64,000 bases of DNA, taken from NCBI GenBank assembly GCA_000002435.2, contig CM018790.1, one strand, 5' to 3'. Below, one piece after another: positions 4,158 to 57,703 of the stretch. The DNA comes from Giardia intestinalis. Lineage: Eukaryota. Below the pieces are notes generated by a model. It was not told where the DNA came from. It made no database searches and worked only from the letters and a program-made list of their open reading frames with translations. The position numbers and the translations under genes were made by a program. The first letter of the stretch is position 1. Every line of letters begins with the position of its first letter.

Positions 4158-4472
4158 ATGTTACCGCAGGCACAGGGGAACACGAATGAGATAAGCCTCA
4201 GAGCTCCAGAAGGCGGCCGTAACATGGTCCTAGCTAAGCCTGACTTCAGTAATGCGCCGCAGACTGACGTGAAAAACCGTATAAGGTGTTTCCTAGATCG
4301 TGCTCGTGCTCTTCCAGAGTGTGCACCCAACGCTTCGGAGCCTATTGTGTTGGACAGTAACAGTGATTATTCGGGCGGTGAGCATGATGGGTCCCTTGGA
4401 GTGATCATGGATGTAATAGAAATAGGTCCCGCAGAATCACGGGAGAGGATTGAAGGCGGAGAAGCTACATGA
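4158..4472 (+). CDS. small hypothetical protein (104 aa), uncertain
   Basis: ATG preceded by A/T-rich gaattaaATG, 9 nt after the helicase stop. It fills an otherwise unusually long 316-bp convergent spacer and overlaps the 3' end of the HECT gene by 8 nt. No recognisable domain. Confidence 0.3.
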   Translation: MLPQAQGNTNEISLRAPEGGRNMVLAKPDFSNAPQTDVKNRIRCFLDRARALPECAPNASEPIVLDSNSDYSGGEHDGSLGVIMDVIEIGPAESRERIEGGEAT

Positions 4473-7400: not shown

Positions 7401-7941
7401 ACGTGGCGCAATTGTCCAGCAAAAAGTGCACGACTCCATCAGGACTGCCGCATCCGTGACACAGAGAAGTAACCAGATTAGCTAGCGCATCAAGGCTAAA
7501 AAACCTTCCCAGCACTTGCTTGTTATATGTCAAGAGCTTAGGCATATATTGCTCTAGAAATGCCCTATTAGAAGAGGACGGGTCCTGGAAGTTAACATGC
7601 CAAATAAGATGATTGAGCGGCCTGGCTGAATAGACGGTTGCAGAGAAGATGTCTGGATCGTCAAGATTGCGGACAACATGCATGACTCCTCTTTGCCACA
7701 TAAGCAGAATATGGCGGATAGACGGCTTGCATATGATGGAAGAACCGTGCGACCCAAGAAGCTCCTTCGCCAGATGCACTGTATCTTGAGGTGTCCACCC
7801 TTCTCCTCTGTGTCCACCATAGCTAAATCCAGAGGATGAAGCGCAATAGGAGTTGCTGCACTCTGCACTGCCACAGCCCTTCAGCAGCTGGACAGACAGG
7901 ATCGCCACCTCCATCGACGTAGGGGTGTGCTTGGCTTTCAT
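4465..7941 (-). CDS. HECT-domain E3 ubiquitin ligase with N-terminal AZUL-like zinc finger (UBE3A/E6AP-like)
   Basis: C-terminal HECT signature LPGAHTCFNILCLPSYSSKETL...EGFGLM with the catalytic Cys. N-terminal LKGCGSAECSNSYCASS resembles the UBE3A AZUL motif (GCGNEACTNEFCAS). ATG start confirmed at 7941-7939. Confidence 0.9.
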   Translation of the reverse strand: MKAKHTPTSMEVAILSVQLLKGCGSAECSNSYCASSSGFSYGGHRGEGWTPQDTVHLAKELLGSHGSSIICKPSIRHILLMWQRGVMHVVRNLDDPDIFSATVYSARPLNHLIWHVNFQDPSSSNRAFLEQYMPKLLTYNKQVLGRFFSLDALANLVTSLCHGCGSPDGVVHFLLDNCATFHDAYLNYTLFQEIILLQYDKCEDPLPILAFMNKLGDLFKSALATIAVKPSLFCSDAHVFMLLLLLFSTERYFNLSSHLLDSIASVLLALQENTGIRLRLCIKMRAFLNTLPLDTSVHILTTLVRLSNAAINNTLERILQQKPSAPIRNAHVYSFDQPRQFTRIIGAEHCIVYPINDPIFWSENSQSKYTYDVNRLTLVDILDFNHTLSSLCELSRLLYVSNNFTSYTFPFIAPQVLFEISYSTPQLANSEIANQLKSLLNYNQLSPQIYERISQQHQCLNDGNLRSIADALSFLLPPNLQQTIFLAGATDDVQRLDMVPIIPNDLFHNKFLSSPSYDWRIDAQCLAILFDPDNYFLRASKAYLQLESLIPQELRTALQDVNEDIVTASLDLDEALLDQLLGYEISRLQQYLGPRCYYKLRKPSAPVQRKTSSFRLVEGSIISVPRNTATTDTVASIYNSNHERMLDMLHLAIPRHADQNIVGKVGEVETNKHAISKLFTFCSYPFLLNPQTKLNILLYELGYMIRCSRQSPFLCINAERKTLAGDFLAYFMSFAAEELSYEWLSPVHRLLLRRPIRVQFSGEAAVDFGGPSRELFNDLLPAFITDHKGYFTFNSETQYYYINWQRIRDCTNHDPYFLTTEKYALSPTQERYLYDLRNLFCQLGAMLGISLVSGATVSSIFPPIFFKLLLGHSYTVITREDLHDVDEELYFSLTNLWKHAHNEDSQLTVNLQESSDPILTFVGLGAILTEIVSEELVSMNRTVSVRTISHFGDFLCSNSFPPNSILWQLKELVKDRHHILTAPYDIELLPVNLRTLPLFIRLKQIATIYNKKIFEFIRSGFLSMAKARSLAMFTASDLDLALTGEVDLNFSLLEPFTAYENPYSSSHPNIKNFWRIVAELTQEQQRRLLRFITGSDRVPAGGVQNIGLKIIPNGDDDSRLPGAHTCFNILCLPSYSSKETLMNRLLCAIECCEGFGLM

Positions 7942-8033: not shown

Positions 8034-10298
8034 TTACGTTACATCATGTTCCTTCTGCTCAAGAAATCCATCAAGTAGAATGAGCATAGGTTTGAACACG
8101 TACTCAGACTCTTTCTTTAGAGACGCTAGCTCATTATTCTGAAGAGGCTTGGCTGAGTACAGTGCATCTAGAAAGACAGCCATCAAAACCAAAAGAGGCA
8201 CAAGCGCCCAGATACACACCATGGTTAGAGTGTTAGTTGCTAGCCGCTGCAAGCCCAGCACTCCTATCTCATATAAAAGGACACAGATTGCCATCTCCAA
8301 AGCGCTGCCATCAAACCGTCCACCCTCAAAGATCCTGTGCCGTTCTAGATGGTGTACGTGACAGCGTGCATACAGAAAATCGGCACCAAAGAGCTGTGCG
8401 GCAGAGGCCATCATAAAGCAGAGCAGAATGGCCAGCGTGATCATAAGAATGCGAAGAAGAGTAAGAAACGCGTTTTTGCGCTTAATCCGCCGCACTGCCC
8501 GGATATTATATTCCAGCCGCCTTAGAATGCTAACGATCACTGCGTGGCAATCCCTGAGAATACGTTCGTTGTCAACAAAAATGGATTGCTCAAGGGACCA
8601 ACAGAGCTCATCGGTAGATGCTAAGAGCTCACCGATTCGGCTGGTAGAGGCACAACTTTGGTGTAAGCCGTTTCCAAGACCAACCTCTGAGCTTGCTGGG
8701 CCCTGAGAAATGATAGAGTGAGCATCATAAGTATTTGGGTTTACGACCCGGAGCATGGTGCCGCATTGGCTAATGAGCTTTCCGGCCATTGCGTTAACGA
8801 TTGCTTGTGAAGCAGCAAGGGTCTTAACTACATTTGACTGCTGCAGCGAATCAGCTAGTGTATAGTTCTGCTGCTGAGAGGGTGCCACTGACGAAGAAAG
8901 GAACTTATCCTGCTTGTCTGCAGATAAGGTCAAAGTAGAGATGCCCAAATGTGTTGGCTCCTGCGAGAGCTGTGGCAGTGCACCTGTTTCTACTTCGCTA
9001 GCTCCATACTGTTGCGGTCTGTTGCTTAGAGTAGCACTCAATTTAGTGACTTCAAGAACTATGTTTGACGTGTCGACAAGCGCTCTTGTTTGCTCATTAA
9101 GACATCTTATAGTATCGCATATATCTTGTTTTAGCCTCGTCGTTTTAGCCTGCTGGTTTGCCATTTTTGCATTGCCATAATGGGGGATACAGACTAGATT
9201 CATTTTGAAACGTCTGTATGGGGAGAGCAATATGAGTGACGAGGCGTACTCCTGAATGGCGTCAATACACGATTGTTTATCTGTAAGACGATCACACTTA
9301 GTAATTAGAATAGTTGTTTTTCCAAAAAGCTCATTTGATGAACTGATGTAGTGTAGTAGCCTTCCATTTTCCACAGAAAAGCCTTCGGTTTTTGTATCTA
9401 TACCACAGCTTGTTGTAAAAAGGATCTTATCAACTTGATGAAAGAGCGCCTTGATTGTGTTTTCAAACACTCGAGTTTCTGCCTTAGAAAAAAGCGAGCT
9501 CGGCTTGGCTTGTTTGCCTCGCTTGGACAGGTTGCTCAGAGAGCTGAGAATTCCTTTTGAAGTCGACGACTCTATCACGTAGCGGTAGAAAAATGGTACT
9601 TCGATGAAAATAAAGGGACACGTAGGCCCCATTAACTGGTCAGATGCTCCATGAAGTATGTTGTTACTCTGTGGTAAATGTGAGACAGACTTTTCTAACT
9701 TATCTATCGAATTATAGAGGGTAGCAGAATTAGACGAGACATCTTTATATCTAGAAGCCGAAGTAGATGAAGAATCACGTCCCCTTGGCAGCTGCTTAGT
9801 GCCCTCAGCAGTCGACTTAGTAGAGTAGTACATGGATTTCCCGGTGGGGGAGAGGTTCGCGTTGTGAAACCCACTTTGTAATTGGCTCTGGTCTGTTGAA
9901 AGCACCGATCCAGGAGTCTGCTTACTATATGAATTAAAAGCGCTGCAACGAATATGCGAGCCTGGGAATCCGTTTTCACGAAAGCAAGCATGGATGGATG
10001 GCAGTGTGTCTGCAAGACTGTCTGTAAAATAGGCAACATCGTTGACGCAAGGCACGTATATATTGATGCACATTCCCTCTGAGCGAAGCCTTGATCCGGT
10101 GATGTGACTTATAAGCGACGATTTTCCGCTGTAGTCCTCGCCAAGAACCAAAATCACTGGTCGTGGATTGGGAGCCTTAAAGGGGGTTGTAATGCGAAGT
10201 CTTTGACCAGCTGAGATTATGTGATGTACATATAGGTCTGAGATGGCTGCTCGTGTTTGCAAAGCCACATCTAAGCCTTGATCTGTATTAGAGATCAT
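8034..10298 (-). CDS. P-loop NTPase/GTPase-like membrane protein (dynamin/EHD-superfamily-like), hypothetical
   Basis: Walker A LVLGEDYSGKSSLISHITG and a TKCD (N/TKxD-like) G4 motif. Three hydrophobic helices near the C-terminus (LILMITLAILLCFMMASAA, ICVLLYEIGVLGL, VCIWALVPLLVLMAVFL). ATG start confirmed. Confidence 0.75.
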   Translation of the reverse strand: MISNTDQGLDVALQTRAAISDLYVHHIISAGQRLRITTPFKAPNPRPVILVLGEDYSGKSSLISHITGSRLRSEGMCINIYVPCVNDVAYFTDSLADTLPSIHACFRENGFPGSHIRCSAFNSYSKQTPGSVLSTDQSQLQSGFHNANLSPTGKSMYYSTKSTAEGTKQLPRGRDSSSTSASRYKDVSSNSATLYNSIDKLEKSVSHLPQSNNILHGASDQLMGPTCPFIFIEVPFFYRYVIESSTSKGILSSLSNLSKRGKQAKPSSLFSKAETRVFENTIKALFHQVDKILFTTSCGIDTKTEGFSVENGRLLHYISSSNELFGKTTILITKCDRLTDKQSCIDAIQEYASSLILLSPYRRFKMNLVCIPHYGNAKMANQQAKTTRLKQDICDTIRCLNEQTRALVDTSNIVLEVTKLSATLSNRPQQYGASEVETGALPQLSQEPTHLGISTLTLSADKQDKFLSSSVAPSQQQNYTLADSLQQSNVVKTLAASQAIVNAMAGKLISQCGTMLRVVNPNTYDAHSIISQGPASSEVGLGNGLHQSCASTSRIGELLASTDELCWSLEQSIFVDNERILRDCHAVIVSILRRLEYNIRAVRRIKRKNAFLTLLRILMITLAILLCFMMASAAQLFGADFLYARCHVHHLERHRIFEGGRFDGSALEMAICVLLYEIGVLGLQRLATNTLTMVCIWALVPLLVLMAVFLDALYSAKPLQNNELASLKKESEYVFKPMLILLDGFLEQKEHDVT

Positions 10299-10371
10299 CT
10301 AGCTTTTATTTCTCATTCACTGGTTAATTTCGAGCTAAGTTCCACCCGTGCAGCGGACCAGCCCTTCCCGC

Positions 10372-11996
10372 GCTTTGGGCCCGGGCGGGCACGCTCTGGC
10401 CTGCAGCGCCGCGACCTTCCAGGGCGTCTCCGGGGCCCGGCGAGGCACACCCGCCGCCGCGGGCTGTGCCGGCCGGCCACAGGCGGCTGCTGTTCGCTTC
10501 CTCGCGACCGCTTGCCACCCAGGGTCCTGCCTGTCGCTGAGGGTCCTCGGATCAGGCCCTGTCTCCGGCCAGCCGATCGAGCCGCTACCGGATCACCAGG
10601 AAGAGCAGACCCACCCATTCTGCGGCCGACACACTACCACTCTCGGAAGCGCTACGCACATAGAGAGTCTACAGCGCACTCAGCCTGACAGCTGTGATGA
10701 GCCAATACTCGACAACGCAGCATAGACAAGGGCACCGTCACGCATAGACGCCTCCACATAGTTTGCTTTGGTTCATTACGGCAAGCTTGCCAGCTGCTGT
10801 CCGACTAAATTACTCAAAGAGAACGGCTGCGGTGGACAACATTCTTGCTCATTGAATTTGAGATCCGATGATTCGGATGCCATCTAGTTCTGGTGGAGAA
10901 AGAGATCTCCATGAGTCCCTGCTGCAGGAATCACCAGTTCAGCTCTTGCACTACTGTTTCAGGGACACTCCGTCCCCTTTGCTTACTCCCCTTGGGCGCT
11001 AGAACTTGGGCACTGCCTATGTCTTGTTACATGGGTCGATGGCGCCCCCAACTTCCGTCGCAATGTCTCGTAGGGACCACCGACGTTAGTAGAGGCGTAG
11101 CTCAGATGGCGAGAGGCTGGGGCCTAACGATTAACATTGCTAAGCGTAAGAGCATCCAGAAGGTATGAAAAGTTTTCTTCCTGGGAACCCAGTCTCGAAA
11201 GAGCGGCTATCTGCAGCCCTCAGGGCGATCGCGAGTACATCAAAGCATCTGAAGCTGGTAATTGATACGCCATATGACTTCTACGAATCCTTCAACGGAC
11301 TGGTCAGGGTCTCTAGCTGAGATACTTGTTTCGGACCTGAAGAAGCCCATTGCGTTTTTGGCTATACAGGACAGCGGCAGCCTGGGGGTCCACCTACTGG
11401 GCGTCTACTACAGCAGCTGGCGGTGCCTGACATCATCGAGTAGATGGGTGCCGGTTGTAGAGAGAGACGGCCTAACGACGAACCGGTCCTGATCGCTTCT
11501 GATGCTTTGGATGACGCCTCGACAGACCGAAGCATCACCCCAAGTGTGCTGTGCAGATGGACCAGCCCACACGTCACTGAGCCAGACACACTGCACAGGA
11601 TGGGCGCCGATGCGGTCTCGTGCTGGGTGACGGAGCACCTCTGCGACCCATGAACCGAGGACTGGACCTCTCCCCTGATACCAGCGCATGGGAGTACTCC
11701 ATCGACATCCACGAATGCGTACCACAACCTCAAGATAGAGGCGCATGGGGAGCGCGCCCTCCCGGTCATACTCGGAACCGATGATCGCTTCATGGGGAGA
11801 CGAAGAGGCACCCGAGGAACGGGGTAGACACCGGGGTCGTGGCGTGCGATCTTTGTCGTAGAGCACCAAGACCTTGAAGTACATGGCCAGAGTCAACTGC
11901 TCTGAGGCCAGATCGCCGTGGATGATGCAGACCCGAGACAACGGATGCTCACTAGACATCAGACGAGAATTGACCCCGACGGGCCAGAGAGAAGGG
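10372..11996. repeat. Left arm of large inverted repeat (partner 18119-19771)
   Basis: Positions 10372-11531 are the exact reverse complement of 18612-19771, with left+right coordinate always 30143. I checked this by direct comparison of 10741-10800 with 19343-19402, and by three identical mirrored ORF pairs (10893-11168/18975-19250, 11262-11492/18651-18881, 10348-10725/19418-19768). From 11532 to about 11996 the arms still align but with many mismatches and indels. Confidence 0.95.
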
Positions 11997-12414
11997 AGGA
12001 ATCCTAGAGGCACCGCAAGAAACAGCAGGGACTCTTAAAAGAGACGGGGCATAGGAGTTCTTCCGCCGGGATTCGAGAACACCCGACTCTCGGATTTCTG
12101 ATCTCAGCTAATGTATGAGTGAGAGACTTGCCTAGAGTGGTGGTGGCTCGCATGAGAGACCACTCAGATAGCAAATGAGAGTAAATTAGGGGACCTTATT
12201 GAAAAAGAAACGGTGACCCGAGCTTCACCCATCGTGAAACAAGACCAAGGAGAAGCGCCATGGGTAGAGCAGAGAGTCTGCGAGAAGGCCTGAACCCCGA
12301 AAGGACCGATGTACGCATTCGGTCTGAGCATGCACCCATGAAACGGTAGAGAAATGTACCGGGCCCTGGATGTATCACTGGAGAGGACCCTCTTGTTATG
12401 TTATCAATGACCAA
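11560..12414 (-). pseudogene. Decayed protein-kinase-domain remnant (NEK-like), left copy
   Basis: Minus-strand ORF 11408-12013 reads ...SRVCIIHGDLASEQLTL (HRDLKxxN-like loop) ...LVLYDKD (DFG position) ...SSPHEAIIGSEYD (APE-like) ...YLEVVV... VLRHPARDRIGAHPV (subdomain XI-like). Upstream ORF 12196-12414 has HPGPGTFLYRF (Gly-loop-like). It is broken by stops and frameshifts. The right arm carries a more degraded copy (AVRHPARDRIGAHPVQCVWLS in ORF 18269-18781). Confidence 0.5.
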
Positions 12415-12523
12415 CAGTCGTCTCTGAACTGGTCAGAGCTTGAGCGAGGATCACACGCAAGATCTCTGGACAATCCTCAGATAGCCCCAGCAGCATAGTG
12501 TAATAAGCTACATACAACAATGC

Positions 12524-12538
12524 GTTTACTACCTAAGT
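12524..12538 (-). promoter_or_regulatory. VSP-type extended polyadenylation signal ACTTAGGTAGTAAAC
   Basis: The minus strand reads TAG ATGT ACTTAGGTAGTAAAC immediately after the VSP stop. This matches the published vsp consensus ACTYAGRTAGTRAAY, which contains the Giardia AGTRAAY poly(A) signal. Confidence 0.85.
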
Positions 12539-12542
12539 ACAT

Positions 12543-15245
12543 CTACGCCTTCCCGCGGCAGAGGAACCACCAACACAAGAAGCCCACAAGACCACCTACA
12601 ACAACGATCACAGCAACAGAGATGCCCGCGATCGCGCCAGTGCTGAGCCCGCTCTTGTTGACGCTTCCGCCGTTGTCAGTGCCATCCGTCTTGACGTAGC
12701 AGATGACAGAACCACTATTACCAGTTGGAGGATCGCAGCTTGCGCAGTTAGCGACACCCTGGATGCTACCGCTTGTCTCTGTACACAGCTTGCATGCTTT
12801 ACTGGCGTCCAAGTAACGGCCAGGTGGACAGGCGCTGCACTTATCGGGTTGATTGGCCACGGTGCATGTGGCACAAGTGGAATCGCATAATGGACACATG
12901 TTCGAGACAGCTGTCAAGCCATTCGCACATGTTTGGCATTTTCCATCCCCAGTGGGCGTTGTGCAGATGCTCTTCCCGGGGAGCCTGTCAGTCTTGTAGC
13001 ATCCGCCCTCCTGGATGAAGTATCCGGCGGCGCAGACCGTGCAAGCACCGTTAGCGGCAGTGGTGCAGAACAGAGTCCTGGCCGCATTGCTCGTGCAGAC
13101 GCCATTGAGCGGCACGTTGCTCCCCTTGCACTTCGAGCAGTACTTGGTACCTCCAATTGTTAGGCCGCACGTCTCGCACTCCGGGCCTTCCACGCATTGC
13201 TCCACGCACGTGCCGCCCTCATTAAGCTTGCTTTCGTCGGCGTACCTCAGCATCTTCCCGGCGGGACAGGCCGTGCACTTGGAAGCGCCGGCCCCGCTGC
13301 ACTCCGCACAGGAGGGGTCGCAGGGCGCGCACGTTTGTCCGGATAGATACGTTCCGACAGGGCAGGCATCTAAGCATGCCTTCTTCGTCGGGGTCAGATG
13401 CTTGCCTGGTTCACACGCCTCGCAAGTCTGCTTGTCCGAGGAGCACGTCTGGCAGTTCTCGATCGGGCAGTCGGCCGGCGCTGGGTTGCACGCCCTGTTA
13501 TCCCCGCTGGCCACGAATCCCGGCTTGCACGCCTCGCACGTCGCCTTGTCCGAGGAGCACGTCTGGCAGTTCTCGATCGGGCAGTCGGCCGGCGCTGGGT
13601 TGCACGCCCTGTTATCCCCGCTGGCCACGAATCCCGGCTTGCACGCCTCGCACGTCGCCTTGTCCGAGGAGCACGTCTGGCAGTTCTCGATCGGGCAGTC
13701 GGCCGGCGCTGGGTTGCACGCCCTGTTATCCCCGCTGGCCACGAATCCCGGCTTGCACGCCTCGCACGTCGCCTTGTCCGAGGAGCACGTCTGGCAGTTC
13801 TCGATCGGGCAGTCGGCCGGCGCTGGGTTGCACGCCCTGTTATCCCCGCTGGCCACGAATCCCGGCTTGCACGCCTCGCACGTCGCCTTGTCCGAGGAGC
13901 ACGTCTGGCAGTTCTCGATCGGGCAGTCGGCCGGCGCTGGGTTGCACGCCCTGTTATCCCCGCTGGCCACGAATCCCGGCTTGCACGCCTCGCACGTCGC
14001 CTTGTCCGAGGAGCACGTCTGGCAGTTCTCGATCGGGCAGTCGGCCGGCGCTGGGTTGCACGCCCTGTTATCCCCGCTGGCCACGAATCCCGGCTTGCAC
14101 GCCTCGCACGTCGCCTTGTCCGAGGAGCACGTCTGGCAGTTCTCGATCGGGCAGTCGGCCGGCGCTGGGTTGCACGCCCTGTTATCCCCGCTGGCCACGA
14201 ATCCCGGCTTGCACGCCTCGCACGTCGCCTTGTCCGAGGAGCACGTCTGGCAGTTCTCGATCGGGCAGTCGGCCGGCGCTGGGTTGCACGCCCTGTTATC
14301 CCCGCTGGCCACGAATCCCGGCTTGCACGCCTCGCACGTCGCCTTGTCCGAGGAGCACGTCTGGCAGTTCTCGATCGGGCAGTCGGCCGGCGCTGGGTTG
14401 CACGCCCTGTTATCCCCGCTGGCCACGAATCCCGGCTTGCACGCCTCGCACGTCGCCTTGTCCGAGGAGCACGTCTGGCAGTTCTCGATCGGGCAGTCGG
14501 CCGGCGCTGGGTTGCACGCCCTGTTATCCCCGCTGGCCACGAATCCCGGCTTGCACGCCTCGCACGTCGCCTTGTCCGAGGAGCACGTCTGGCAGTTCTC
14601 GATCGGGCAGTCGGCCGGCGCTGGGTTGCACGCCCTGTTATCCCCGCTGGCCACGAATCCCGGCTTGCACGCCTCGCACGTCGCCTTGTCCGAGGAGCAC
14701 GTCTGGCAGTTCTCGATCGGGCAGTCGGCCGGCGCTGGGTTGCACGCCCTGTTATCCCCGCTGGCCACGAATCCCGGCTTGCACGCCTCGCACGTCGCCT
14801 TGTCCGAGGAGCACGTCTGGCAGTTCTCGATCGGGCAGTCGGCCGGCGCTGGGTTGCACGCCCTGTTATCCCCGCTGGCCACGAATCCCGGCTTGCACGC
14901 CTCGCACGTCGCCTTGTCCGAGGAGCACGTCTGGCAGTTCTCGATCGGGCAGTCGGCCGGCGCTGGGTTGCACGCCCTGTTATCCCCGCTGGCCACGAAT
15001 CCCGGCTTGCACGCCTCGCACGTCGCCTTGTCCGAGGAGCACGTCTGGCAGTTCTCGATCGGGCAGTCGGCCGGCGCTGGGTTGCACGCCCTGTTATCCC
15101 CGCTGGCCACGAATCCCGGCTTGCACGCCTCGCACGTCGCCTTGTCCGAGGAGCACGTCTGGCAGTTCTCGATCGGGCAGTCGGTCGATACTGATGTACG
15201 GTGAGCCTGTGTCACTGTAAAAACTAGGAGAAATCCTACCAACAT
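12543..15245 (-). CDS. Variant-specific surface protein (VSP) with 38-aa tandem repeats
   Basis: N-terminal signal peptide MLVGFLLVFTVTQA, numerous CXXC motifs, a GGCY motif (IQEGGCYKTD), and a C-terminal TM helix followed by the invariant tail CRGKA. The start context cTAATGTT is Inr-like. Confidence 0.97.
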   Translation of the reverse strand: MLVGFLLVFTVTQAHRTSVSTDCPIENCQTCSSDKATCEACKPGFVASGDNRACNPAPADCPIENCQTCSSDKATCEACKPGFVASGDNRACNPAPADCPIENCQTCSSDKATCEACKPGFVASGDNRACNPAPADCPIENCQTCSSDKATCEACKPGFVASGDNRACNPAPADCPIENCQTCSSDKATCEACKPGFVASGDNRACNPAPADCPIENCQTCSSDKATCEACKPGFVASGDNRACNPAPADCPIENCQTCSSDKATCEACKPGFVASGDNRACNPAPADCPIENCQTCSSDKATCEACKPGFVASGDNRACNPAPADCPIENCQTCSSDKATCEACKPGFVASGDNRACNPAPADCPIENCQTCSSDKATCEACKPGFVASGDNRACNPAPADCPIENCQTCSSDKATCEACKPGFVASGDNRACNPAPADCPIENCQTCSSDKATCEACKPGFVASGDNRACNPAPADCPIENCQTCSSDKATCEACKPGFVASGDNRACNPAPADCPIENCQTCSSDKATCEACKPGFVASGDNRACNPAPADCPIENCQTCSSDKATCEACKPGFVASGDNRACNPAPADCPIENCQTCSSDKQTCEACEPGKHLTPTKKACLDACPVGTYLSGQTCAPCDPSCAECSGAGASKCTACPAGKMLRYADESKLNEGGTCVEQCVEGPECETCGLTIGGTKYCSKCKGSNVPLNGVCTSNAARTLFCTTAANGACTVCAAGYFIQEGGCYKTDRLPGKSICTTPTGDGKCQTCANGLTAVSNMCPLCDSTCATCTVANQPDKCSACPPGRYLDASKACKLCTETSGSIQGVANCASCDPPTGNSGSVICYVKTDGTDNGGSVNKSGLSTGAIAGISVAVIVVVGGLVGFLCWWFLCRGKA
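13432..15184. repeat. Perfect tandem repeat, 114-bp unit x about 15.4 copies, inside the VSP CDS
   Basis: The unit cttgtccgaggagcacgtctggcagttctcgatcgggcagtcggccggcgctgggttgcacgccctgttatccccgctggccacgaatcccggcttgcacgcctcgcacgtcgc recurs every 114 nt. It encodes ADCPIENCQTCSSDKATCEACKPGFVASGDNRACNPAP. All three plus-strand frames give identical translations in every unit, so the copies are identical or nearly so at nucleotide level. Confidence 0.97.
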
Positions 15246-15247
15246 TA
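15241..15247 (-). promoter_or_regulatory. Initiator-like element around the VSP start codon (TAATGTT)
   Basis: The minus strand reads c-TAATGTT-gg. This fits the PyAATGTT initiator described for 'VSP with INR' genes. Position only; no functional evidence. Confidence 0.45.
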
Positions 15248-15878
15248 GCCGGGTTAGTATGCCACTGCTCTTCTGTCAGGCCGGTGTATTGGCCGCGAGC
15301 AGTGAGAGACAGCCGCTCTTGCTCTCTCGATCAGTTGGACTGAAGAAGGATAAGATAGGAGCACGCCCACCGGAGGCCGGCTGATAGTGCAGTTCCCCCT
15401 GACTTCGATAGGAACAGGACCAGTGATGACTAGACTCAGACCGCACCTCTCTTGTGGAATGATTGTTCGGGGCGCACTCCTGTACATTGCTGTCACTGTA
15501 TCACTGGGCCCGCCTGCAAGTGCGCTCAGAGATCCCACGGGTAAGCTGCGCCCACTTCTCGACCGTCCGGAGACGATGGCTAGTTGTGGATAACATACTA
15601 AGAGCTCCTCTCCATCGATGCATCCAGAGCTCAGTGTGGTCCCAGTCGGCGTGCCCTGTCGAGGGTGCTCCATGTCGGCCTCCAGGATCCGGCCTGCTCA
15701 GGGCCATACAAGCCGTTAGTATGCCTCTCCTTGGCCTGCCATCGACAGCTCGCACTGGCCGCCCTGCTCGGGTAGTAGCCAAGGTCACTCCAAAGGGTGG
15801 CTCCGGATTGCAGTTAAGATTAGCGATGGCTGTTGGCTCCACTCCCCGTTCCAACTGCCGCGGAGGGCGCCCTGGGAG

Positions 15879-18016
15879 ATGCTAGTAACAGTGCAGTTAG
15901 CGGCTTTGCAGAGCCGATGGGCGCTGGTGGCATCCCCGTGCTCAGCGGGGGCCTTCAGTGTTATCTACTCTCCCAAGGGATGCCCCTACCTCGCCGTGAG
16001 AGAGATCCGGCTCGACGGTCTGGATCAGCACGGTGTGGATGCTAAAGCGTGGGCTGGTCGCCCTTCTTAACATCTTTCACCTGGGAGTCCTCAAGCACTA
16101 TCAAGTGATTGAAGACGAGGGCCTCATCTACGTCGTCACGGACCGGCACGACAAGACCCTTGAGCGCCTCCTCACCGAGCACAAACGAAGGAAGATCCCC
16201 GTCCCTATCGCTGTGATCCTCTCTGTCATGAAGCAGGTCGCTGCCGCCCTCGCCTACCTCCACGGCCTCAGCGGAGTGGGTGCCGACGGTCGCCCCTACA
16301 AGGGCCTCGTCCACCGCGACCTCAAGCTTGCGAACGTCCTCGTCAGCGCAGATGGTGAACACTTCATCATCGCCGACTTCGGCCTCTGTAAGGACGCCCT
16401 GAGATGCGGGAGCACCATTGCAGGCACGGCAGTATACATGGCCCCCGAGATTCTCCTCCGTAATGAGACCAGCCATGCTTCCGACGTGTGGAGCCTCGGG
16501 GTCATCATTTATGAATTAGTAACTCTGAGGAGACCGGACTTCTTGGGGGGCAAGGAGCCAGCAGAGGTCTTCGTCGACGGGTGGAGGCCGGACCTGAGCG
16601 GTGTCACTGATGGCTTCATAAAGAGTGTTCTGGAGAGGATATTCGTGCTGGAACCAGAGGAAAGACTGACGGCCAGGGAGCTGCACGAGACGCTCACTGC
16701 GGCTGACATCCCAGTTAGTGAGCTGAGGGGCAGTGCGTGATGCTGAGGTACAAGTGCGGATCCTTGGAGGCTGCGCTGAATGGCGCTAACGCCAGGATCG
16801 CGCTGCTGGAAGAGGAGGTTAAGACTAAGTCTACTAAGATTGACGCACTCGAAGAGCAAGGTAAGGAGCACCTAGCCATGATTAAGGCACTGGAGAGTAG
16901 GCTTGCACAGTTCGGTGACAGGATGAACACGACTGACCCTCAGTCCAGCCTCCTTTTGCTGCCCAGGCTGATGCGTGCCGCGCATACGAATAGCATGGAA
17001 ACCGTCTGGATGCTGCTTGAAGAAGGACTCGGCGTTGGCTAGCGTGACGAGCAGGGGCACGTCAGTCCCGTCGAGTTGCTTGTTGGGGAGGAGAGGGGCC
17101 TCCAGGACAGGAACGGCTGGACCCCCTGATGATCACCACAGAGGAGGGCTATGCAAGAGCTGCCTCCCTTCTGGTCCCATATGAGAAGGACCGGATCGGC
17201 AGCGAAGGCAAGACGGCCTTGGTGATTGCGGCAGAGGCAGGACATGGAACTGTGGTGGAGGCCATCGACCCAACCGATGAGAATGGCGTCACGGCGCTCA
17301 TGCGAGCTGTTAATAGAAACTACGTGGGGCCTGTGAAGGCAGTCATACTTAGCCAGAGAAGGAGGAAAACATACAAAGAGGTCATAGCAAGCGGATGGTA
17401 CATGCGCACAGGAACAGCTCTGATGATGGCTGCGGCACATGGATACGCAGAAATAGTAGAACTGCTAGTGGAACACGAAAAGGGGAGAAAGTAGGCGGTT
17501 GGGCCGCTCTCATATTCGCGGCACGGTGCGACCGTTCCAATGACCCCCTGGTGGACTATATTGGGCGCGTTGAGCTTTTGATGGAGTATGAGAGCAATAT
17601 CTCAGGGTGGACGGAGCTCATGTATGCAGTAGCACGAGGGCAGAAGGGAGTGTAGAGCTGCTCAAGCAGGAGACTGGGATACAGAATAACGATCATCAGA
17701 CTGTCCTCACGTGGACGGTGTGCAATGATCACCCAGAGTGTGTCAGGCCCCTGCTGAAGGACGAAGGCTGCATGCAAACGACCAAGGGGGGACCGCCCTT
17801 ATGAACGCAGCATATAGCAACACCGTGGAATGTGCAAGACTTCCTAAAGAAAACGAGAAGGAGCTGAAGACAATTTCTAGCTGCCATGGTCACTCGCCCG
17901 GTACCACTGCCCTCAATATCGCTAAGAAGAAGGATCGCAAAGAGATAGTAGACATCCTCCCAAACGAGATCTACTCTGCTTCATCAAGGTCGGCTTGCCA
18001 GCTCCTGTCCGAGTAA
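15879..18016 (+). pseudogene. NEK-family kinase + coiled-coil + ankyrin-repeat gene, disrupted by multiple frameshifts
   Basis: N-lobe (SAGAFSVIYS...YLAVREIRL) is in frame 0 (15879-16070). The catalytic core (LVHRDLKLANVLV, ADFGLCK, GTAVYMAPE, SDVWSLGVIIYELV) is in frame 1 (16033-16740). The coiled coil (16737-17042) is in frame 0. Ankyrin units (GKTALVIAAEAGH, GVTALMRAV, GTALMMAAAHGYAEIVELLV, GGTALMNAAYS, GTTALNIAKKKDRKEIVDIL) are spread over frames 2, 1, 0 and 2. Confidence 0.8.
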
Positions 18017-18118
18017 ATCCGTCCAGGATCCGGAGTCCGGATGCCGCCCACTCTGGAGAAGAGCCTTGTGCATCCCGCCTAGGAGCCATTGGGTGCTCCA
18101 CTATATGCTTCGGGGCGT

Positions 18119-19771
18119 CCCTTCTCTCTGGCCCGTCGGGGTCAGCCATCGCCTGATATCTAGTGAGCACCCGTTGTCCCGGGCCTTGCGTCGGTCACGG
18201 CGATCCTGTCTCAAGAGCAATTGACTCTGGCCATGTACTCTGGAGTAGCTTTGTGGTGCTGATGCTCCATGACGAAGATCGCGCCCCACGACCCCGGGTG
18301 TCGACTCCCGTTCCTCGGGGTGCCTCTTCATCTTCTCGTGGAGGGCACCATCTGTTCCATTATCAAGGATGCGCTCCCCGTGCGCCTCTGTCTTGGAGTC
18401 ATAGTACGCATTCGTGGATGCCAGCGGAGCACTCCCATGCGGTGGTGTCGGGGGAGAAGTATGGCCCTCCTATTCATGGATCGAAGGGCGCTCTTGCAGG
18501 CGGTCCGTCACCCAGCACGAGACCGCATCGGCGCCCATCCTGTGCAGTGCGTCTGGCTCAGTGACGTGTGGGCTGGTCCATCTGCACCGCAAAGCACGCT
18601 TGGGGGAATGATTCGGTCTGTCGAGGCGTCATCCAAAGCATCAGAAGCGATCAGGACCGGTTCGTCGTTAGGCCGTCTCTCTCTACAACCGGCACCCATC
18701 TACTCGATGATGTCAGGCACCGCCAGCTGCTGTAGTAGACGCCCAGTAGGTGGACCCCCAGGCTGCCGCTGTCCTGTATAGCCAAAAACGCAATGGGCTT
18801 CTTCAGGTCCGAAACAAGTATCTCAGCTAGAGACCCTGACCAGTCCGTTGAAGGATTCGTAGAAGTCATATGGCGTATCAATTACCAGCTTCAGATGCTT
18901 TGATGTACTCGCGATCGCCCTGAGGGCTGCAGATAGCCGCTCTTTCGAGACTGGGTTCCCAGGAAGAAAACTTTTCATACCTTCTGGATGCTCTTACGCT
19001 TAGCAATGTTAATCGTTAGGCCCCAGCCTCTCGCCATCTGAGCTACGCCTCTACTAACGTCGGTGGTCCCTACGAGACATTGCGACGGAAGTTGGGGGCG
19101 CCATCGACCCATGTAACAAGACATAGGCAGTGCCCAAGTTCTAGCGCCCAAGGGGAGTAAGCAAAGGGGACGGAGTGTCCCTGAAACAGTAGTGCAAGAG
19201 CTGAACTGGTGATTCCTGCAGCAGGGACTCATGGAGATCTCTTTCTCCACCAGAACTAGATGGCATCCGAATCATCGGATCTCAAATTCAATGAGCAAGA
19301 ATGTTGTCCACCGCAGCCGTTCTCTTTGAGTAATTTAGTCGGACAGCAGCTGGCAAGCTTGCCGTAATGAACCAAAGCAAACTATGTGGAGGCGTCTATG
19401 CGTGACGGTGCCCTTGTCTATGCTGCGTTGTCGAGTATTGGCTCATCACAGCTGTCAGGCTGAGTGCGCTGTAGACTCTCTATGTGCGTAGCGCTTCCGA
19501 GAGTGGTAGTGTGTCGGCCGCAGAATGGGTGGGTCTGCTCTTCCTGGTGATCCGGTAGCGGCTCGATCGGCTGGCCGGAGACAGGGCCTGATCCGAGGAC
19601 CCTCAGCGACAGGCAGGACCCTGGGTGGCAAGCGGTCGCGAGGAAGCGAACAGCAGCCGCCTGTGGCCGGCCGGCACAGCCCGCGGCGGCGGGTGTGCCT
19701 CGCCGGGCCCCGGAGACGCCCTGGAAGGTCGCGGCGCTGCAGGCCAGAGCGTGCCCGCCCGGGCCCAAAGC
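18119..19771. repeat. Right arm of large inverted repeat (partner 10372-11996)
   Basis: 18612-19771 is the exact reverse complement of 10372-11531. 18119-18611 aligns to 11532-11996 with substitutions and a net 28 bp of indels. Weak similarity may continue to about 18016 / about 12090. The arm starts directly after the stop of the NEK pseudogene. Confidence 0.95.
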
Positions 19772-19863
19772 ACAGATGATGGTTCATTTCATCTATTTAC
19801 TAGAAGGCAACTAGCCGAATAGTCTGATAAGTAGCCTCTTCTTATGCATGTTAACTGAATAAG

Positions 19864-22281
19864 TCATATAACTGGGATATAACAGCATCCAATAATAACC
19901 CAGACAGCCGCAATGGTTTCTGCATATCCAAAGACAGAAACGTGCAGTCCTATACGCAGTTTATCCCCATGTGCCTCAACTATACTACGACTTTTATCGT
20001 TTGAAAGAAGCGTCTCTACAATAGGTGGAGCATAGAATCTTAGGCTCCCCATGACCTGCAACGGATAAACTATCAGTGTTTCACGAGAAGAAACATAATT
20101 TTTGAGCGCTACCTTCAAAGTCTCATTGCCTAACTGGCCGATAGTTCCACCCATGAGGCGTGTCTGTTCCCAGGATGCTACTGTGGGCGCCAATATCATA
20201 GAAAGCTGTTCAGATCTGGGTGTTGTCAGTCCAAGTGTTTGCCTCCGTGCTTCAATAAGCCTCCATATATCTGCTGTTAAATAACTGGACAGTGTAGCGG
20301 CCAAGGAGGGGCCAAACGGTTTTAGTATATTCTGGTTTTGAAGCAAACGTGGAAGACGGGTAGAAGTCACTAGATAATCATCGTCATCCATGTTATAGTG
20401 ATAGACATAGCTATTATAGACGCGTTCTATCATGGACTGATTGAAAGCTTTCCAAAATAAGGGCCTGGATATATCTAGAGATATGCCATGTATAAGTTGT
20501 TTTTCAGGTATGTATTGTAGTCTATTTGTACTTTGAATATTAACAAAAAGCATGGTTTCATTGAAAATGCAGTCTATTGTCTCATACGGAAAATGAATAA
20601 CAGTTCCAGCAGAATCAGAGTGTTTATCTATCTTGTATTGACCTTCTGTTGGCAACGAGTGCAGCTCTATCATACCTCCATGATCCGATAACAAGCAGTC
20701 CCAGAATTGAATCACCTGTGCACAGAGTGTGATAACGAACGCAGAGCGGACACTCCTATTTCCAGACACATCCGATTTTAGCCCTGGAAGAGCGCATGTG
20801 CCCAGAGCAACGAATGCCGGTATCTGATATCCTCTCAGCATCGAGCACAAGAGAACTGCCTTGTCAAACGGTGTACCAGCACCGACAGATAGCGTGGTGA
20901 TAACTCGAGACCAGACTAGCTCGTTGTTTCCTGATAGTCCAGCGGTGGCTGGAGTTGATTGGCGTCCAGGTGCTGGCATAAGTTGGATAAAGCGCATGCA
21001 ATAGCTAGCCGTTGGAAGGTACGAGCTTGTAAAGGGAGTGATAAGAGTGGAAATAGGGACCACCATTCCATCATCCCGAAGAGCATGGAGCTGAACAAAA
21101 CGCTTGTCTAGTCCAACCGAACTGGGCTGCGAGCCAAGATAGTCTCTCATAAATACGCTTGCGGTCCTATCATATTCTGCAAGTGCTCTGGAGACTGATC
21201 TTTTTGAGGTTGTTAATATGTCTCTAAGGGAGCGGAAGGAGGCTTCTTCAGAGACATCTGCACTGGTCAGAAGGGGCGTGAAAGTGATTGAAACGTTAAG
21301 AGTACCTAGCCGTATTTTTTCGGTTGGAGTGTTGGGTCCTGGTGCTTGAGAATAAGGGTACATGGGAACACTAACTGCCCCAGCCAGCAGAGAATTGGCC
21401 TTGGTCAGCTCAGTGAAGAACTCCACAAAGCCAACTCGTCCATGTGCATGAAGATACTGCATTCCTGAATAGCTGTGGAACACCGCAAGAAAGGTAAGGT
21501 CAGTTACTTTGAGATCTGAAATTGCTCTGAAAGAAGTCAGCGGAGTGGAGGATATACAGAATCGAATCTTTGAAAACGCTAACGGTGCAAGCCCTATAGT
21601 AGCATCACTTCTTTCACACTTGATTGGCGGACAGACATGCCGCAAATTTCCAAGAGCTATTGTGAGGGTAATCACGCCTTCCTCACTGACGCCAGATTGC
21701 CCACCAAGATTGTTACTACACGGAGGAGCAAGCTCACCCGAGGTGATCTGAACCTCTAGATGTTGTTCTACAAGAGTTCTAGACTCTCTAGCAGCGTGAA
21801 GCGCTGTAAGCATTGAGACGGAATCTCTAACCACTTCACTCATAGCACGTGTTGCCTGACGCTCTGTACTATTTAAATCATCGTGTGTATTCATAGACAA
21901 TACATTAGGCTGTGTGCCCCCCTGGACAGACTCCAAATGGCGGCGAGCTTGCTCTCTTCTTTCCATACGTTCCTCTGCAGACATTGATATGCAATCTGTT
22001 GGCTCTGCAGTGGCCCCAGAGCACTTCGACCTGTGAATAGCATATGCCTCCTTCACTGTTTGCTTATCAAAGGCCTGGTCAAAGTATCTTTCTGCCAGTG
22101 AGTGTACTAAGTTGGACTTTTCCAGGTATACTAAGAGACGCTTTTCTACGTCCCGTGGGTTCATATCTCTATCTATCTTTAGCTCTGGGTCCTTGGACTC
22201 ACTGAGTTCCTGGAAAATGCTCTGCAGCTGCTCTTTTGTAAGCTCTCTTAGAACGAACGCCTTAATGCTCTGGGAGTCCAT
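19864..22281 (-). CDS. Hypothetical protein, possibly CC2D2A-like (C2 + transglutaminase-like fold)
   Basis: 805-aa ORF with ATG start. The C-terminal half contains AVLLCSMLRGYQIPAFVALGT, MLFVNIQS, LDISRPLFWKAFN and a terminal ...AAVWVIIGCCY. These resemble my recollection of human CC2D2A ([40 protein letters not shown], ...SVWIYVASL). The assignment is unverified. Confidence 0.85.
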   Translation of the reverse strand: MDSQSIKAFVLRELTKEQLQSIFQELSESKDPELKIDRDMNPRDVEKRLLVYLEKSNLVHSLAERYFDQAFDKQTVKEAYAIHRSKCSGATAEPTDCISMSAEERMERREQARRHLESVQGGTQPNVLSMNTHDDLNSTERQATRAMSEVVRDSVSMLTALHAARESRTLVEQHLEVQITSGELAPPCSNNLGGQSGVSEEGVITLTIALGNLRHVCPPIKCERSDATIGLAPLAFSKIRFCISSTPLTSFRAISDLKVTDLTFLAVFHSYSGMQYLHAHGRVGFVEFFTELTKANSLLAGAVSVPMYPYSQAPGPNTPTEKIRLGTLNVSITFTPLLTSADVSEEASFRSLRDILTTSKRSVSRALAEYDRTASVFMRDYLGSQPSSVGLDKRFVQLHALRDDGMVVPISTLITPFTSSYLPTASYCMRFIQLMPAPGRQSTPATAGLSGNNELVWSRVITTLSVGAGTPFDKAVLLCSMLRGYQIPAFVALGTCALPGLKSDVSGNRSVRSAFVITLCAQVIQFWDCLLSDHGGMIELHSLPTEGQYKIDKHSDSAGTVIHFPYETIDCIFNETMLFVNIQSTNRLQYIPEKQLIHGISLDISRPLFWKAFNQSMIERVYNSYVYHYNMDDDDYLVTSTRLPRLLQNQNILKPFGPSLAATLSSYLTADIWRLIEARRQTLGLTTPRSEQLSMILAPTVASWEQTRLMGGTIGQLGNETLKVALKNYVSSRETLIVYPLQVMGSLRFYAPPIVETLLSNDKSRSIVEAHGDKLRIGLHVSVFGYAETIAAVWVIIGCCYIPVI

Positions 22282-57652: not shown

Positions 57653-57688
57653 GTGACTTTGGACGTGACCTTGGACGTGACCTTGGAC
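57653..57688. repeat. 12-nt tandem repeat x3 (gtgacYttggac) in the intergenic spacer
   Basis: gtgactttggac gtgaccttggac gtgaccttggac lies in the 72-bp spacer between the cytochrome b5 start (57631) and the DJ-1 stop (57704). Confidence 0.9.
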
Positions 57689-57703
57689 GGAGCCCCGTAC
57701 CTT

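What the first reader, a model, noticed from the sequence alone, without database searches (positions are those of the whole stretch)
13432..15184. 15.4 perfectly identical 114-bp (38-aa) repeats make up about two-thirds of a VSP
Seen: the 114-bp unit recurs without a visible substitution from 13432 to 15184. All three antisense reading frames repeat identically. Each unit encodes two CXXC motifs (CPIENCQTCSSDKATCEACKPGFVASGDNRACNPAP). A 16th unit diverges after about 45 bp into the unique C-terminal region. Known: a few Giardia VSP/CRP proteins contain tandem repeats whose copy number varies between lines. Inference: perfect identity over 1.75 kb implies very recent expansion or continuous homogenisation. 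Copy number is probably unstable and may be mis-estimated by short-read assembly. The repeats are an immunodominant-epitope candidate.
Basis: partly seen in the sequence, partly recalled or inferred. Interest (0 to 1): 0.6.

Follow-up and report, generated by a model that had tools for sequence, protein, structure and literature searches.

The report
Known Giardia VSP with perfect repeats
This is the already annotated Giardia surface-antigen gene VSP-100 (GL50803_33279), whose outer part is 15 identical copies of a 38-residue cysteine-rich module; the repeat is real and its copy number was under-counted in the older genome assembly, but both the gene and the repeat are already catalogued.

Summary
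Window 13431-15184 is a perfect 114-nt tandem array (1,754 nt, 15.39 copies). It lies inside a 900-aa ORF (12543-15245, minus strand) that is a canonical Giardia variant-specific surface protein.

The window is chromosome 2 of Giardia WB. The gene is GL50803_0033279 (XP_001706163.2, VSP-100).

- Adam et al. 2010 list it as "TR114, 11 copies, 748 aa, 106 Cys, 36 CXXC". The window protein minus four units gives exactly those numbers.
- A 2022 preprint lists the 900-aa form and this same 114-nt consensus.
- Three proteomic studies detected the protein.

Perfect repeats are normal for the 30-36 repeat-bearing WB VSPs.

A paralogue (GL50803_114162) has a near-identical leader and the same array junction. 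Its units differ at the same 16 of 114 nt in each of the three compared. That indicates concerted evolution rather than a one-off recent expansion.

An AlphaFold model shows each unit as two beta-hairpins resembling furin-like or EGF-like modules.

Verdict: real, correctly interpreted, already known, low interest. One side observation deserves a note. A 1.65-kb inverted repeat, whose outer 1,160 nt are identical, brackets the VSP and a decayed NEK kinase.

The parts
12543..15245 (-). Complete coding sequence of VSP-100 / GL50803_0033279 (900 aa plus stop)
   Evidence: ORF. Pfam VSP PF03302 E=3e-164. 130 Cys (14.4%) and 44 CXXC. The 2,703 nt / 900 aa length and the printed, truncated start of the sequence match the entry in bioRxiv 10.1101/2022.03.07.483299 Table S2.
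15183..15245 (-). Leader and pre-repeat segment (aa 1-21, MLVGFLLVFTVTQAHRTSVST)
   Evidence: The first 61 nt differ at only 2 silent sites from the paralogue GL50803_114162.
15241..15247 (-). Initiator-like element TAATGTT overlapping the start codon
   Evidence: Sequence. Adam 2010 Table S1 lists TAATGTT for vsp100.
13431..15184 (-). Perfect tandem array: 15 full 114-nt units plus the first 44 nt of a 16th
   Evidence: The unit is identical to consensus 23 of the 2022 preprint.
13361..13474 (-). 16th (edge) unit: 44 nt perfect, then diverged (77/114 identical). It encodes DCPIENCQTCSSDKQTCEACEPGKHLTPTKKACLDAC
   Evidence: At the three sites 45, 46 and 50 it carries the paralogue's bases (CAGACT), not those of the 15 homogenised units.
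12636..13360 (-). Non-repeated cysteine-rich ectodomain, including the GGCY motif
   Evidence: Pfam VSP E=1e-108 on the C-terminal 314 aa. The 309 aa from the edge unit to the C-terminus are 88% identical to DH protein ESU39795 and mosaic against WB GL50803_112867.
12546..12635 (-). Transmembrane helix (AIAGISVAVIVVVGGLVGFLCWWFL) and cytoplasmic CRGKA tail
   Evidence: Modelled as a helix at residues 477-496 of the 499-aa construct.
12524..12530 (-). AGTAAAC polyadenylation-type signal 13 nt after the stop codon
   Evidence: The motif TACTTAGGTAGTAAACGCAT is listed for this gene in the 2022 preprint's supplement.
15260..15742 (-). Upstream non-coding region shared with other MLVGFLLV-type VSP genes
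   Evidence: tblastn hits to upstream-extended gene calls P0037, P0025 and P0066 (58-85% identity). Conserved VSP upstream regions are a known feature (PMC2996952).
10372..11997 (.). Left arm of an inverted repeat that brackets the locus (context, not part of the gene)
   Evidence: Positions 10372-11531 are identical to the reverse complement of 18612-19771.
18118..19771 (.). Right arm of the inverted repeat
   Evidence: Short-read contigs stop at or inside the arms.

Best explanation
The feature is the repeat domain of the known Giardia WB surface antigen VSP-100 (GL50803_0033279, chromosome 2).

Shown: the gene is intact and has every hallmark of a VSP. Its extracellular part begins with 15 identical 38-residue modules. 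Published proteomic studies report the protein.

Modelled: each module has 6 Cys and 2 CXXC and folds as two beta-hairpins of the furin-like/EGF-like kind. The array should therefore form a long, stiff, disulfide-rich or metal-binding stalk that presents the same epitope 15 times at the outer surface of the coat.

Inferred: the identity of the units is kept by repeated unequal exchange or gene conversion within the array (concerted evolution). The same process changes copy number, so alleles, clones and assemblies can differ by whole units. Amino-acid changes that arise in one unit either vanish or sweep through the array. In this way paralogous arrays become antigenically different while each stays internally uniform. 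Expression would follow the usual one-VSP-at-a-time switching.
For: Identity of the gene:
- The neighbouring proteins are 100% identical to WB proteins KAE8302293, KAE8302294, KAE8302296 and KAE8302297 on a 1,539,535-nt contig.
- The 2022 preprint's Table S2 lists GL50803_0033279 / XP_001706163.2, chromosome 2, 2,703 nt / 900 aa, with a matching printed start of the sequence and 16 hits of this unit. Its consensus 23 equals the window unit.
- Adam 2010 Table S1 gives vsp100 = GL50803_33279, TR114, 11 copies, 748 aa, 106 Cys, 36 CXXC, chromosome 2, TAATGTT. The window protein minus 4 units gives 748 aa, 106 Cys and 36 CXXC.

VSP hallmarks: Pfam VSP E=3e-164, plus CRGKA, a transmembrane segment, an initiator element and a polyadenylation signal.

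Expression: proteomic detection in PMC3986054, PMC7775365 and PMC5070761.

Concerted evolution:
- Paralogue GL50803_114162 has the same leader and the same array start.
- Its pre-repeat 61 nt are 97% identical to this gene, but its units differ at 16 of 114 nt, and at the same sites in each of the three units compared.
- Its first unit keeps the D found in this gene's units.
- The edge unit here keeps CAGACT, as in the paralogue.
- 13 of the 14 differing codons change the amino acid, and all Cys are kept.

Copy-number growth by whole units between assemblies: +4 units for this gene, +5 for 114162, +5 for CRP136 and +1 for 112867.

Fold: AlphaFold2 gave mean pLDDT 86, with about 71-88 per 10-residue block across the repeats. 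Each unit forms two hairpins. Foldseek matches R-spondin furin-like repeats (probability 1.0), the megalin/LRP2 receptor ectodomain and TNFR cysteine-rich domains.
Against: - No read-level data could be examined, so the copy number and allelic state in the four genome copies are not verified here.
- The dN/dS contrast between paralogous units (about 4.4) rests on 16 differences and is not significant (one-sided Fisher p=0.10).
- Immunodominance and stalk function are analogies, not tests.
- The exact protein and any orthologue carrying this unit are absent from the large protein collection searched. Variation between isolates could therefore not be measured.
Confidence: 0.88

Rival explanations
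1. Assembly or polishing artefact: the perfect identity, the figure of 15.4 copies, or both were produced by the long-read assembler and consensus polishing rather than being present in the genome.
For: Repeat copy numbers do depend on the assembly: 11 copies in the Sanger-based list against 15.4 here. Adam 2010 warns that repeats may be condensed by assembly. Short-read assemblies break around this locus.
Against: The reference was built from PacBio reads with N50 12.7 kb, about seven times the array length, so single reads span it with unique anchors (PMC7000408). The same pipeline kept a single-unit P-to-L variant in the paralogous array of GL50803_114162, so polishing does not erase unit-specific differences. 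The old 748-aa entry differs from this one by exactly four units' worth of residues, Cys and CXXC. Perfect units are also seen in many other WB VSPs.
Confidence: 0.06
2. A single very recent burst of amplification from one unit, with no continuing homogenisation. The units are identical only because there has been no time to diverge.
For: 100% identity over 15 units fits a very young array. The Giardia WB genome shows little sequence variation in general (background knowledge, not tested here).
Against: The paralogue on chromosome 4 has an array that starts at the same junction, with the same unit phase and a near-identical leader. The array therefore most simply predates the gene duplication. 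Yet the units of each gene have since acquired 16 differences that are fixed in the units examined. Edge units in both genes keep the other gene's state, which is the classic signature of homogenisation acting on interior units.
Confidence: 0.12
3. A silent or decaying VSP copy, such as a pseudogene or recombination cassette, whose repeats have no role at the cell surface.
For: The locus is gene-poor, sits beside a decayed NEK kinase, and is bracketed by repeats. Many WB VSP-like genes are pseudogenes: 208 pseudo-VSPs in PMC7000408.
Against: The ORF is intact at 900 aa, with a leader, an initiator element, a polyadenylation signal, a transmembrane segment and a CRGKA tail. It is annotated as a VSP, not a pseudo-VSP. 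Peptides were detected in three proteomic studies, and its transcript was differentially expressed in an iron-depletion experiment.
Confidence: 0.03

Closest known systems
VSP-100 / vsp100 / GL50803_33279 (XP_001706163) of Giardia WB, as catalogued by Adam et al. 2010 and in the 2022 preprint on cysteine-rich protein families
   Same: It is the same gene. Chromosome 2, the TAATGTT initiator, the 114-nt unit sequence, and the 900-aa length in the current reference all match.
   Different: The 2010 entry has 11 copies and 748 aa. The window, like the current reference, has 15.4 copies and 900 aa, exactly four units more.
vsp129 / GL50803_114162 (chromosome 4), the other WB VSP with a 114-nt repeat
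   Same: Same leader peptide, same array junction, same unit length and Cys spacing. The pre-repeat region is 97% identical.
   Different: The units are only 86% identical in DNA (98/114). They differ at 13 of 38 residues, and the three units compared at DNA level show the same differences. Its array contains one variant unit, and its total length is 864 aa.
VSPA6 / CRP170 (GL50803_221693; 195-nt unit, about 22 copies) and vspC5 (105-nt unit, about 25 copies)
   Same: A short leader is followed directly by many near-identical cysteine-rich units. Allelic variation in copy number is documented, and the VSPA6 repeat is reported as immunodominant (PMC2996952).
   Different: Unit length and sequence differ. 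In vspC5 the repeats run up to the conserved 3' end, whereas here a non-repeated ectodomain of about 280 aa follows. Neither immunodominance nor allelic variation has been tested for VSP-100.
CRP136 / GL50803_103142 (120-nt, 40-aa unit)
   Same: Similar unit size and the same MLVGFLLV-type leader. Copy number also rose between assemblies, from 22 to 28.
   Different: The unit sequence is not recognisably similar.
GL50803_112867 (WB, P0002/P0121) and DH protein ESU39795 (P0001)
   Same: These are the closest relatives of the non-repeated C-terminal half in the collection searched: 88% identity to ESU39795, and 86-100% identity over part of 112867. Both carry their own N-terminal repeats.
   Different: Their repeat units are about 101 aa (112867) and about 70 aa (ESU39795, two imperfect copies by eye), and are not recognisably similar to this one. 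Identity to 112867 drops to 40-63% in the membrane-proximal ectodomain, a mosaic pattern.
Furin-like cysteine-rich repeats (R-spondin Fu1-Fu2) and EGF-like or TNFR cysteine-rich modules
   Same: The predicted fold of each unit is two disulfide-braced beta-hairpins. Foldseek probability is 1.0 for R-spondin Fu1-Fu2. Pfam cEGF gives weak hits.
   Different: The likeness is in fold only (21-25% identity). No PDB chain matched by sequence. Nothing suggests receptor-ligand function.

Membership tests
Giardia variant-specific surface proteins (VSP, Pfam PF03302) | Significant match to the VSP profile | tested here: met
   E=3e-164, 547 bits against a cut-off of 31.4. The C-terminal 314 aa alone give E=1e-108.
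Giardia variant-specific surface proteins (VSP, Pfam PF03302) | C-terminal hydrophobic membrane anchor followed by the pentapeptide CRGKA | tested here: met
   The protein ends ...AIAGISVAVIVVVGGLVGFLCWWFLCRGKA. This segment is modelled as a helix.
Giardia variant-specific surface proteins (VSP, Pfam PF03302) | About 11-14% cysteine, mostly in CXXC motifs, plus the GGCY motif | tested here: met
   130 Cys (14.4%) and 44 CXXC. GGCY is present in ...FIQEGGCYKTD....
Giardia variant-specific surface proteins (VSP, Pfam PF03302) | N-terminal signal peptide | tested here: inconclusive
   A hydrophobic leader MLVGFLLVFTVTQA is present and is shared with many annotated VSPs. No signal-peptide predictor was run here. 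The reference annotation kept as 'VSP' only genes with a SignalP-predicted leader (PMC7000408), and this gene is labelled VSP.
Giardia variant-specific surface proteins (VSP, Pfam PF03302) | Mutually exclusive, switching surface expression | not testable with these tools
   Only bulk proteomic detection is available.
Tandem-repeat-containing VSPs of WB (30 genes in Adam 2010; 36 of 136 in the 2022 preprint) | In-frame tandem repeat of 105-516 nt directly after the leader, listed in the published catalogues | tested here: met
   The 114-nt unit starts at nt 62 of the CDS. It is listed as TR114 and as consensus 23.
Tandem-repeat-containing VSPs of WB (30 genes in Adam 2010; 36 of 136 in the 2022 preprint) | Copy number that differs between alleles, lines or assemblies | tested here: met
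   Between assemblies only: 11 against 15.4 copies. Allelic or clonal variation was not testable.
Furin-like / EGF-like cysteine-rich repeat fold | Small beta-hairpin modules braced by conserved Cys pairs | tested here: met
   AlphaFold2 pLDDT is about 71-88 per 10-residue block across the repeats, with two hairpins per unit. Foldseek matches R-spondin Fu1-Fu2 with probability 1.0. This is fold likeness only. Disulfide bonding against metal binding was not tested.

The most novel reading that the evidence does not exclude
The VSP-100 gene and a decayed NEK kinase lie in a 6.1-kb segment bracketed by a 1.65-kb inverted repeat whose outer 1,160 nt are identical. The outer boundary of this repeat is conserved in more divergent Giardia A isolates. 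Recombination between the arms could flip the segment or keep the arms identical. The same local recombination activity could drive the homogenisation and copy-number changes of the 114-nt array. Orientation and copy-number states might then differ among the four genome copies and affect whether this VSP can be expressed. Separately, the almost purely amino-acid-changing divergence between the two paralogous 114-nt arrays could reflect immune-driven diversification that spreads by concerted evolution.
Probability: 0.1. Interest if true: 0.45.

Novelty: already known. Interest (0 to 1): 0.1.

Why it matters
For antigen biology it matters little, because the gene, its repeat and the caveat about copy number are already published.

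It remains useful as a worked example in three ways:
- Repeat-bearing antigen genes are under-counted by older and short-read assemblies. Here the deficit is exactly four units.
- Peptide-based and read-based quantification of such genes needs care.
- Two paralogous arrays in one genome show textbook concerted evolution, with mostly amino-acid-changing differences. That could be used to study how Giardia diversifies repeated epitopes.

The inverted repeat around the locus is a cheap target for anyone holding long reads.

Tried and rejected
- **Exact look-up of the 900-aa protein.** It is not in the 15-billion-protein collection. The homologue search returned no protein with this unit. The best hit is 79% identical over the C-terminal 39% only. 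Isolate-to-isolate comparison of the array was therefore impossible. A second search with the unit alone was judged pointless and was not run.
- **Local BLASTP of two units against the fetched proteins.** The best hit was 38% identical in the visible part of the truncated output. These are generic cysteine-module matches.
- **Short-read contigs crossing the array.** I looked for them through interior ORFs (16033-16740, 16039-16740, 17129-17494). None is on record.
- **Structural-variant tables of the nanopore study PMC7048089.** Neither 33279 nor 17385 is mentioned in the text held.
- **Rfam on 10000-20000.** No match.
- **Pfam on ORFs of the inverted-repeat arms.** No match.
- **PDB sequence search.** No match.
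- **Paper search for inverted repeats flanking VSP genes.** Nothing relevant.
- **Long plus-strand ORFs through the array as antisense genes.** Considered and rejected. They exist only because the unit lacks stop codons in those frames.
- **Pseudo-VSP fragments in the inverted-repeat arms.** Considered and rejected. tblastn with 121 VSPs hit only the conserved upstream region.
Full report
**Observation**

The sequence satisfies w[i]=w[i+114] for 1,640 consecutive positions. This defines a perfect periodic block at window 13431-15184: 1,754 nt, or 15.39 copies. Tandem Repeats Finder gives 13414-15184, period 114, 15.5 copies, 99% matches and no indels. Its extra 17 nt are the degenerate continuation of the last unit.

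The block lies in a 900-aa minus-strand ORF at 12543-15245. The unit DCPIENCQTCSSDKATCEACKPGFVASGDNRACNPAPA occurs 15 times, at aa 22-591. It has 6 Cys and two CXXC motifs, and the repeats make up 65% of the protein. The 16th unit (13361-13474) is identical for 44 nt and then diverges.

The three long plus-strand ORFs through the array exist only because the unit has a stop codon in one of six frames.

**What it is**

The ORF is a canonical Giardia VSP:
- Pfam VSP scores E=3e-164.
- The protein has 14.4% Cys and 44 CXXC motifs.
- It has a hydrophobic anchor followed by CRGKA.
- A TAATGTT initiator overlaps the ATG.
- An AGTAAAC signal lies 13 nt after the stop.

The flanking proteins at 4465-7941, 8034-10298, 19864-22281 and 22348-26073 are identical to WB proteins KAE8302293, KAE8302294, KAE8302296 and KAE8302297, which lie on a 1,539,535-nt contig. 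The window is therefore Giardia WB chromosome 2.

Adam et al. 2010 (PMC2996952, Table S1) list vsp100 = GL50803_33279 as TR114, 11 copies, chromosome 2, TAATGTT, 748 aa, 106 Cys, 36 CXXC. Removing four units from the window protein gives exactly 748 aa, 106 Cys and 36 CXXC.

The 2022 preprint 10.1101/2022.03.07.483299 lists GL50803_0033279 / XP_001706163.2 on NC_051857.1 with 2,703 nt / 900 aa. Its printed (truncated) sequence begins like the window gene, and it records 16 hits of its repeat types 23 and 16. Its consensus 23 is the window unit, letter for letter.

The protein, named VSP-100 in one of the studies, was detected by mass spectrometry in three studies. Its transcript was differentially expressed in an iron-depletion experiment. 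The feature is thus an annotated, catalogued and expressed gene.

**How ordinary the perfect identity is**

Adam 2010 counts 30 repeat-bearing VSPs with units of 105-516 nt and 2 to more than 20 copies. The preprint counts 36 of 136.

Other WB VSPs retrieved here also carry perfect or near-perfect units. P0042 has 10.5 units of 75 aa, P0079 has 12.2 of 75 aa, P0075 has 9.2 of 64 aa, and P0121 has 5.2 of 101 aa. Perfect identity is the rule for this class, not an oddity of this gene.

**Copy number**

Four genes grew by whole units between the Sanger-era list and the PacBio reference:
- 33279: +4 units
- 114162: +5 units (674 to 864 aa)
- CRP136: +5 units (1274 to 1474 aa)
- 112867: +1 unit (741 to 842 aa)

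Adam 2010 had already warned about this and cited allelic copy-number variation for vspA6 and vspC5.

The reference used reads with N50 12.7 kb, so a 1.75-kb array is easily spanned. The paralogous array keeps a single-unit P-to-L variant, which shows that polishing does not erase unit differences. I rate an assembly artefact at about 6%.

**Mechanism**

The most informative comparison is with GL50803_114162 on chromosome 4, using the first 399 nt and about 375 aa printed in the preprint's supplement.
- The two genes share the leader and the exact array start.
- The 61 nt before the array differ at 2 silent sites.
- The units differ at 16 of 114 nt, and at the same 16 sites in each of the three units compared.
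- The first unit of 114162 keeps the D of 33279.
- The edge unit of 33279 keeps CAGACT, as in 114162.

The array therefore most simply predates the gene duplication, and each array has since been homogenised on its own. This is concerted evolution by unequal exchange or conversion, with edge units lagging behind. That is an inference from the pattern, not an observation of the process.

Thirteen of the 14 differing codons change the amino acid, while all six Cys are kept. The dN/dS ratio is about 4.4, but with only 16 differences it is not significant (one-sided p=0.10).

**Structure**

I modelled 5.4 units plus the C-terminal half with AlphaFold2, using 83 homologues in the alignment. Mean pLDDT was 86, and about 71-88 per 10-residue block across the repeats. 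Each unit forms two beta-hairpins.

Foldseek against the PDB matched R-spondin furin-like repeats with probability 1.0. It also matched the megalin/LRP2 receptor ectodomain and TNFR cysteine-rich domains. No PDB chain matched by sequence.

The array is thus best pictured as a rod of 15 identical furin-like/EGF-like modules at the membrane-distal end of the coat protein. Immunodominance is an analogy with VSPA6 and is untested here.

**Relatives of the non-repeated half**

The 309 residues from the edge unit to the C-terminus are 88% identical to DH protein ESU39795. Against WB GL50803_112867 they are mosaic: 86-100% identical over residues 30-150 of that stretch, then 40-63%, then 100% in the anchor. 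This agrees with the recombination among VSP genes reported by Adam 2010.

About 480 nt upstream of the ATG are conserved with other MLVGFLLV-type VSP genes. This feature is also already known.

**Surroundings**

The locus is bracketed by an inverted repeat with arms at 10372-11997 and 18118-19771: 1,660 aligned nt at 93% identity. The outer 1,160 nt are identical, the next 23 nt hold five mismatches, and identity then decays to about 80-90%.

Between the arms lie only the VSP and, head to head with it, a NEK-type kinase broken over several frames (16033-18016). It consists of a Pkinase domain missing profile positions 1-52, a coiled coil, and ankyrin pieces. It is probably a pseudogene.

Short-read evidence shows that the repeat is real:
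- Short-read contigs stop at or inside the arms.
- The arm assembles as a lone contig of about 1.2 kb in many runs.
- In more divergent isolates, contigs stop exactly k-1 nt inside the same outer boundary.

The repeat is therefore real and conserved in position. I found no description of it in the papers searched. Whether the segment inverts is untested.

**Verdict**

The feature is an already described member of a well-known class. Interest is 0.1. The only loose ends worth a look are the inverted repeat and the amino-acid-biased divergence between the two 114-nt arrays.

Noticed in passing
window 10372-11997 and 18118-19771: A large inverted repeat brackets the VSP locus. The outer 1,160 nt (10372-11531 against 19771-18612) are identical, the next 23 nt hold 5 mismatches, and the inner part decays to about 80-90% identity. 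The arm ORFs tested have no Pfam match, and the 10000-20000 region has no Rfam match. The arm assembles as a lone contig of about 1.2 kb in many short-read runs, and its outer boundary is conserved in more divergent isolates. Inversion of the 6.1-kb interior is possible but untested.
   Followed up: partly
window 16033-18016 (+): A NEK-type kinase lies head to head with the VSP and is broken across frames. The pieces are a Pkinase domain lacking profile positions 1-52 (16033-16740), a coiled coil in another frame (16737-17042), and ankyrin fragments (17129-17494, 17738-18016). It is probably a pseudogene. By accession numbering, only one protein appears to be annotated between the two flanking genes.
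   Followed up: partly
window 15260-15742 (-): About 480 nt upstream of the VSP start are homologous to the upstream regions of other MLVGFLLV-type VSP genes. This shows up as 58-85% identity to gene calls that were wrongly extended upstream (P0037, P0025, P0066). It matches the known group of VSPs with near-identical 5' flanks.
   Followed up: partly
window 12546-13474 (-): The 309 residues from the edge unit to the C-terminus are 88% identical to a DH (assemblage A2) VSP that has different N-terminal repeats. Against WB GL50803_112867 they are mosaic (86-100%, then 40-63%, then 100%). This suggests past recombination between VSP genes.
   Followed up: partly
window 13015-15220 (+): Three long plus-strand ORFs (729, 614 and 598 aa) run through the array. 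They are by-products of a unit with a stop codon in only one of six frames, not genes.
   Followed up: yes
window 12543-15245 (-): The exact 900-aa protein, its 748-aa older version and the paralogue GL50803_114162 did not appear in the large protein collection, although their neighbours are present in 75-160 data blocks. The reason is unknown, and it blocked the comparison between isolates.
   Followed up: no
window 29227-31881 (-): The 884-aa ORF, a high-cysteine membrane protein or Notch-like protein, equals the older entry XP_001708796.1. The current annotation (KAE8302300.1) is 874 aa, presumably through a different start codon.
   Followed up: no
window 57653-57689 and 1012-1072: Two short tandem repeats were reported by Tandem Repeats Finder: a 12-nt unit with 3.1 copies, and a 21-nt unit with 2.9 copies. 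They were not examined.
   Followed up: no
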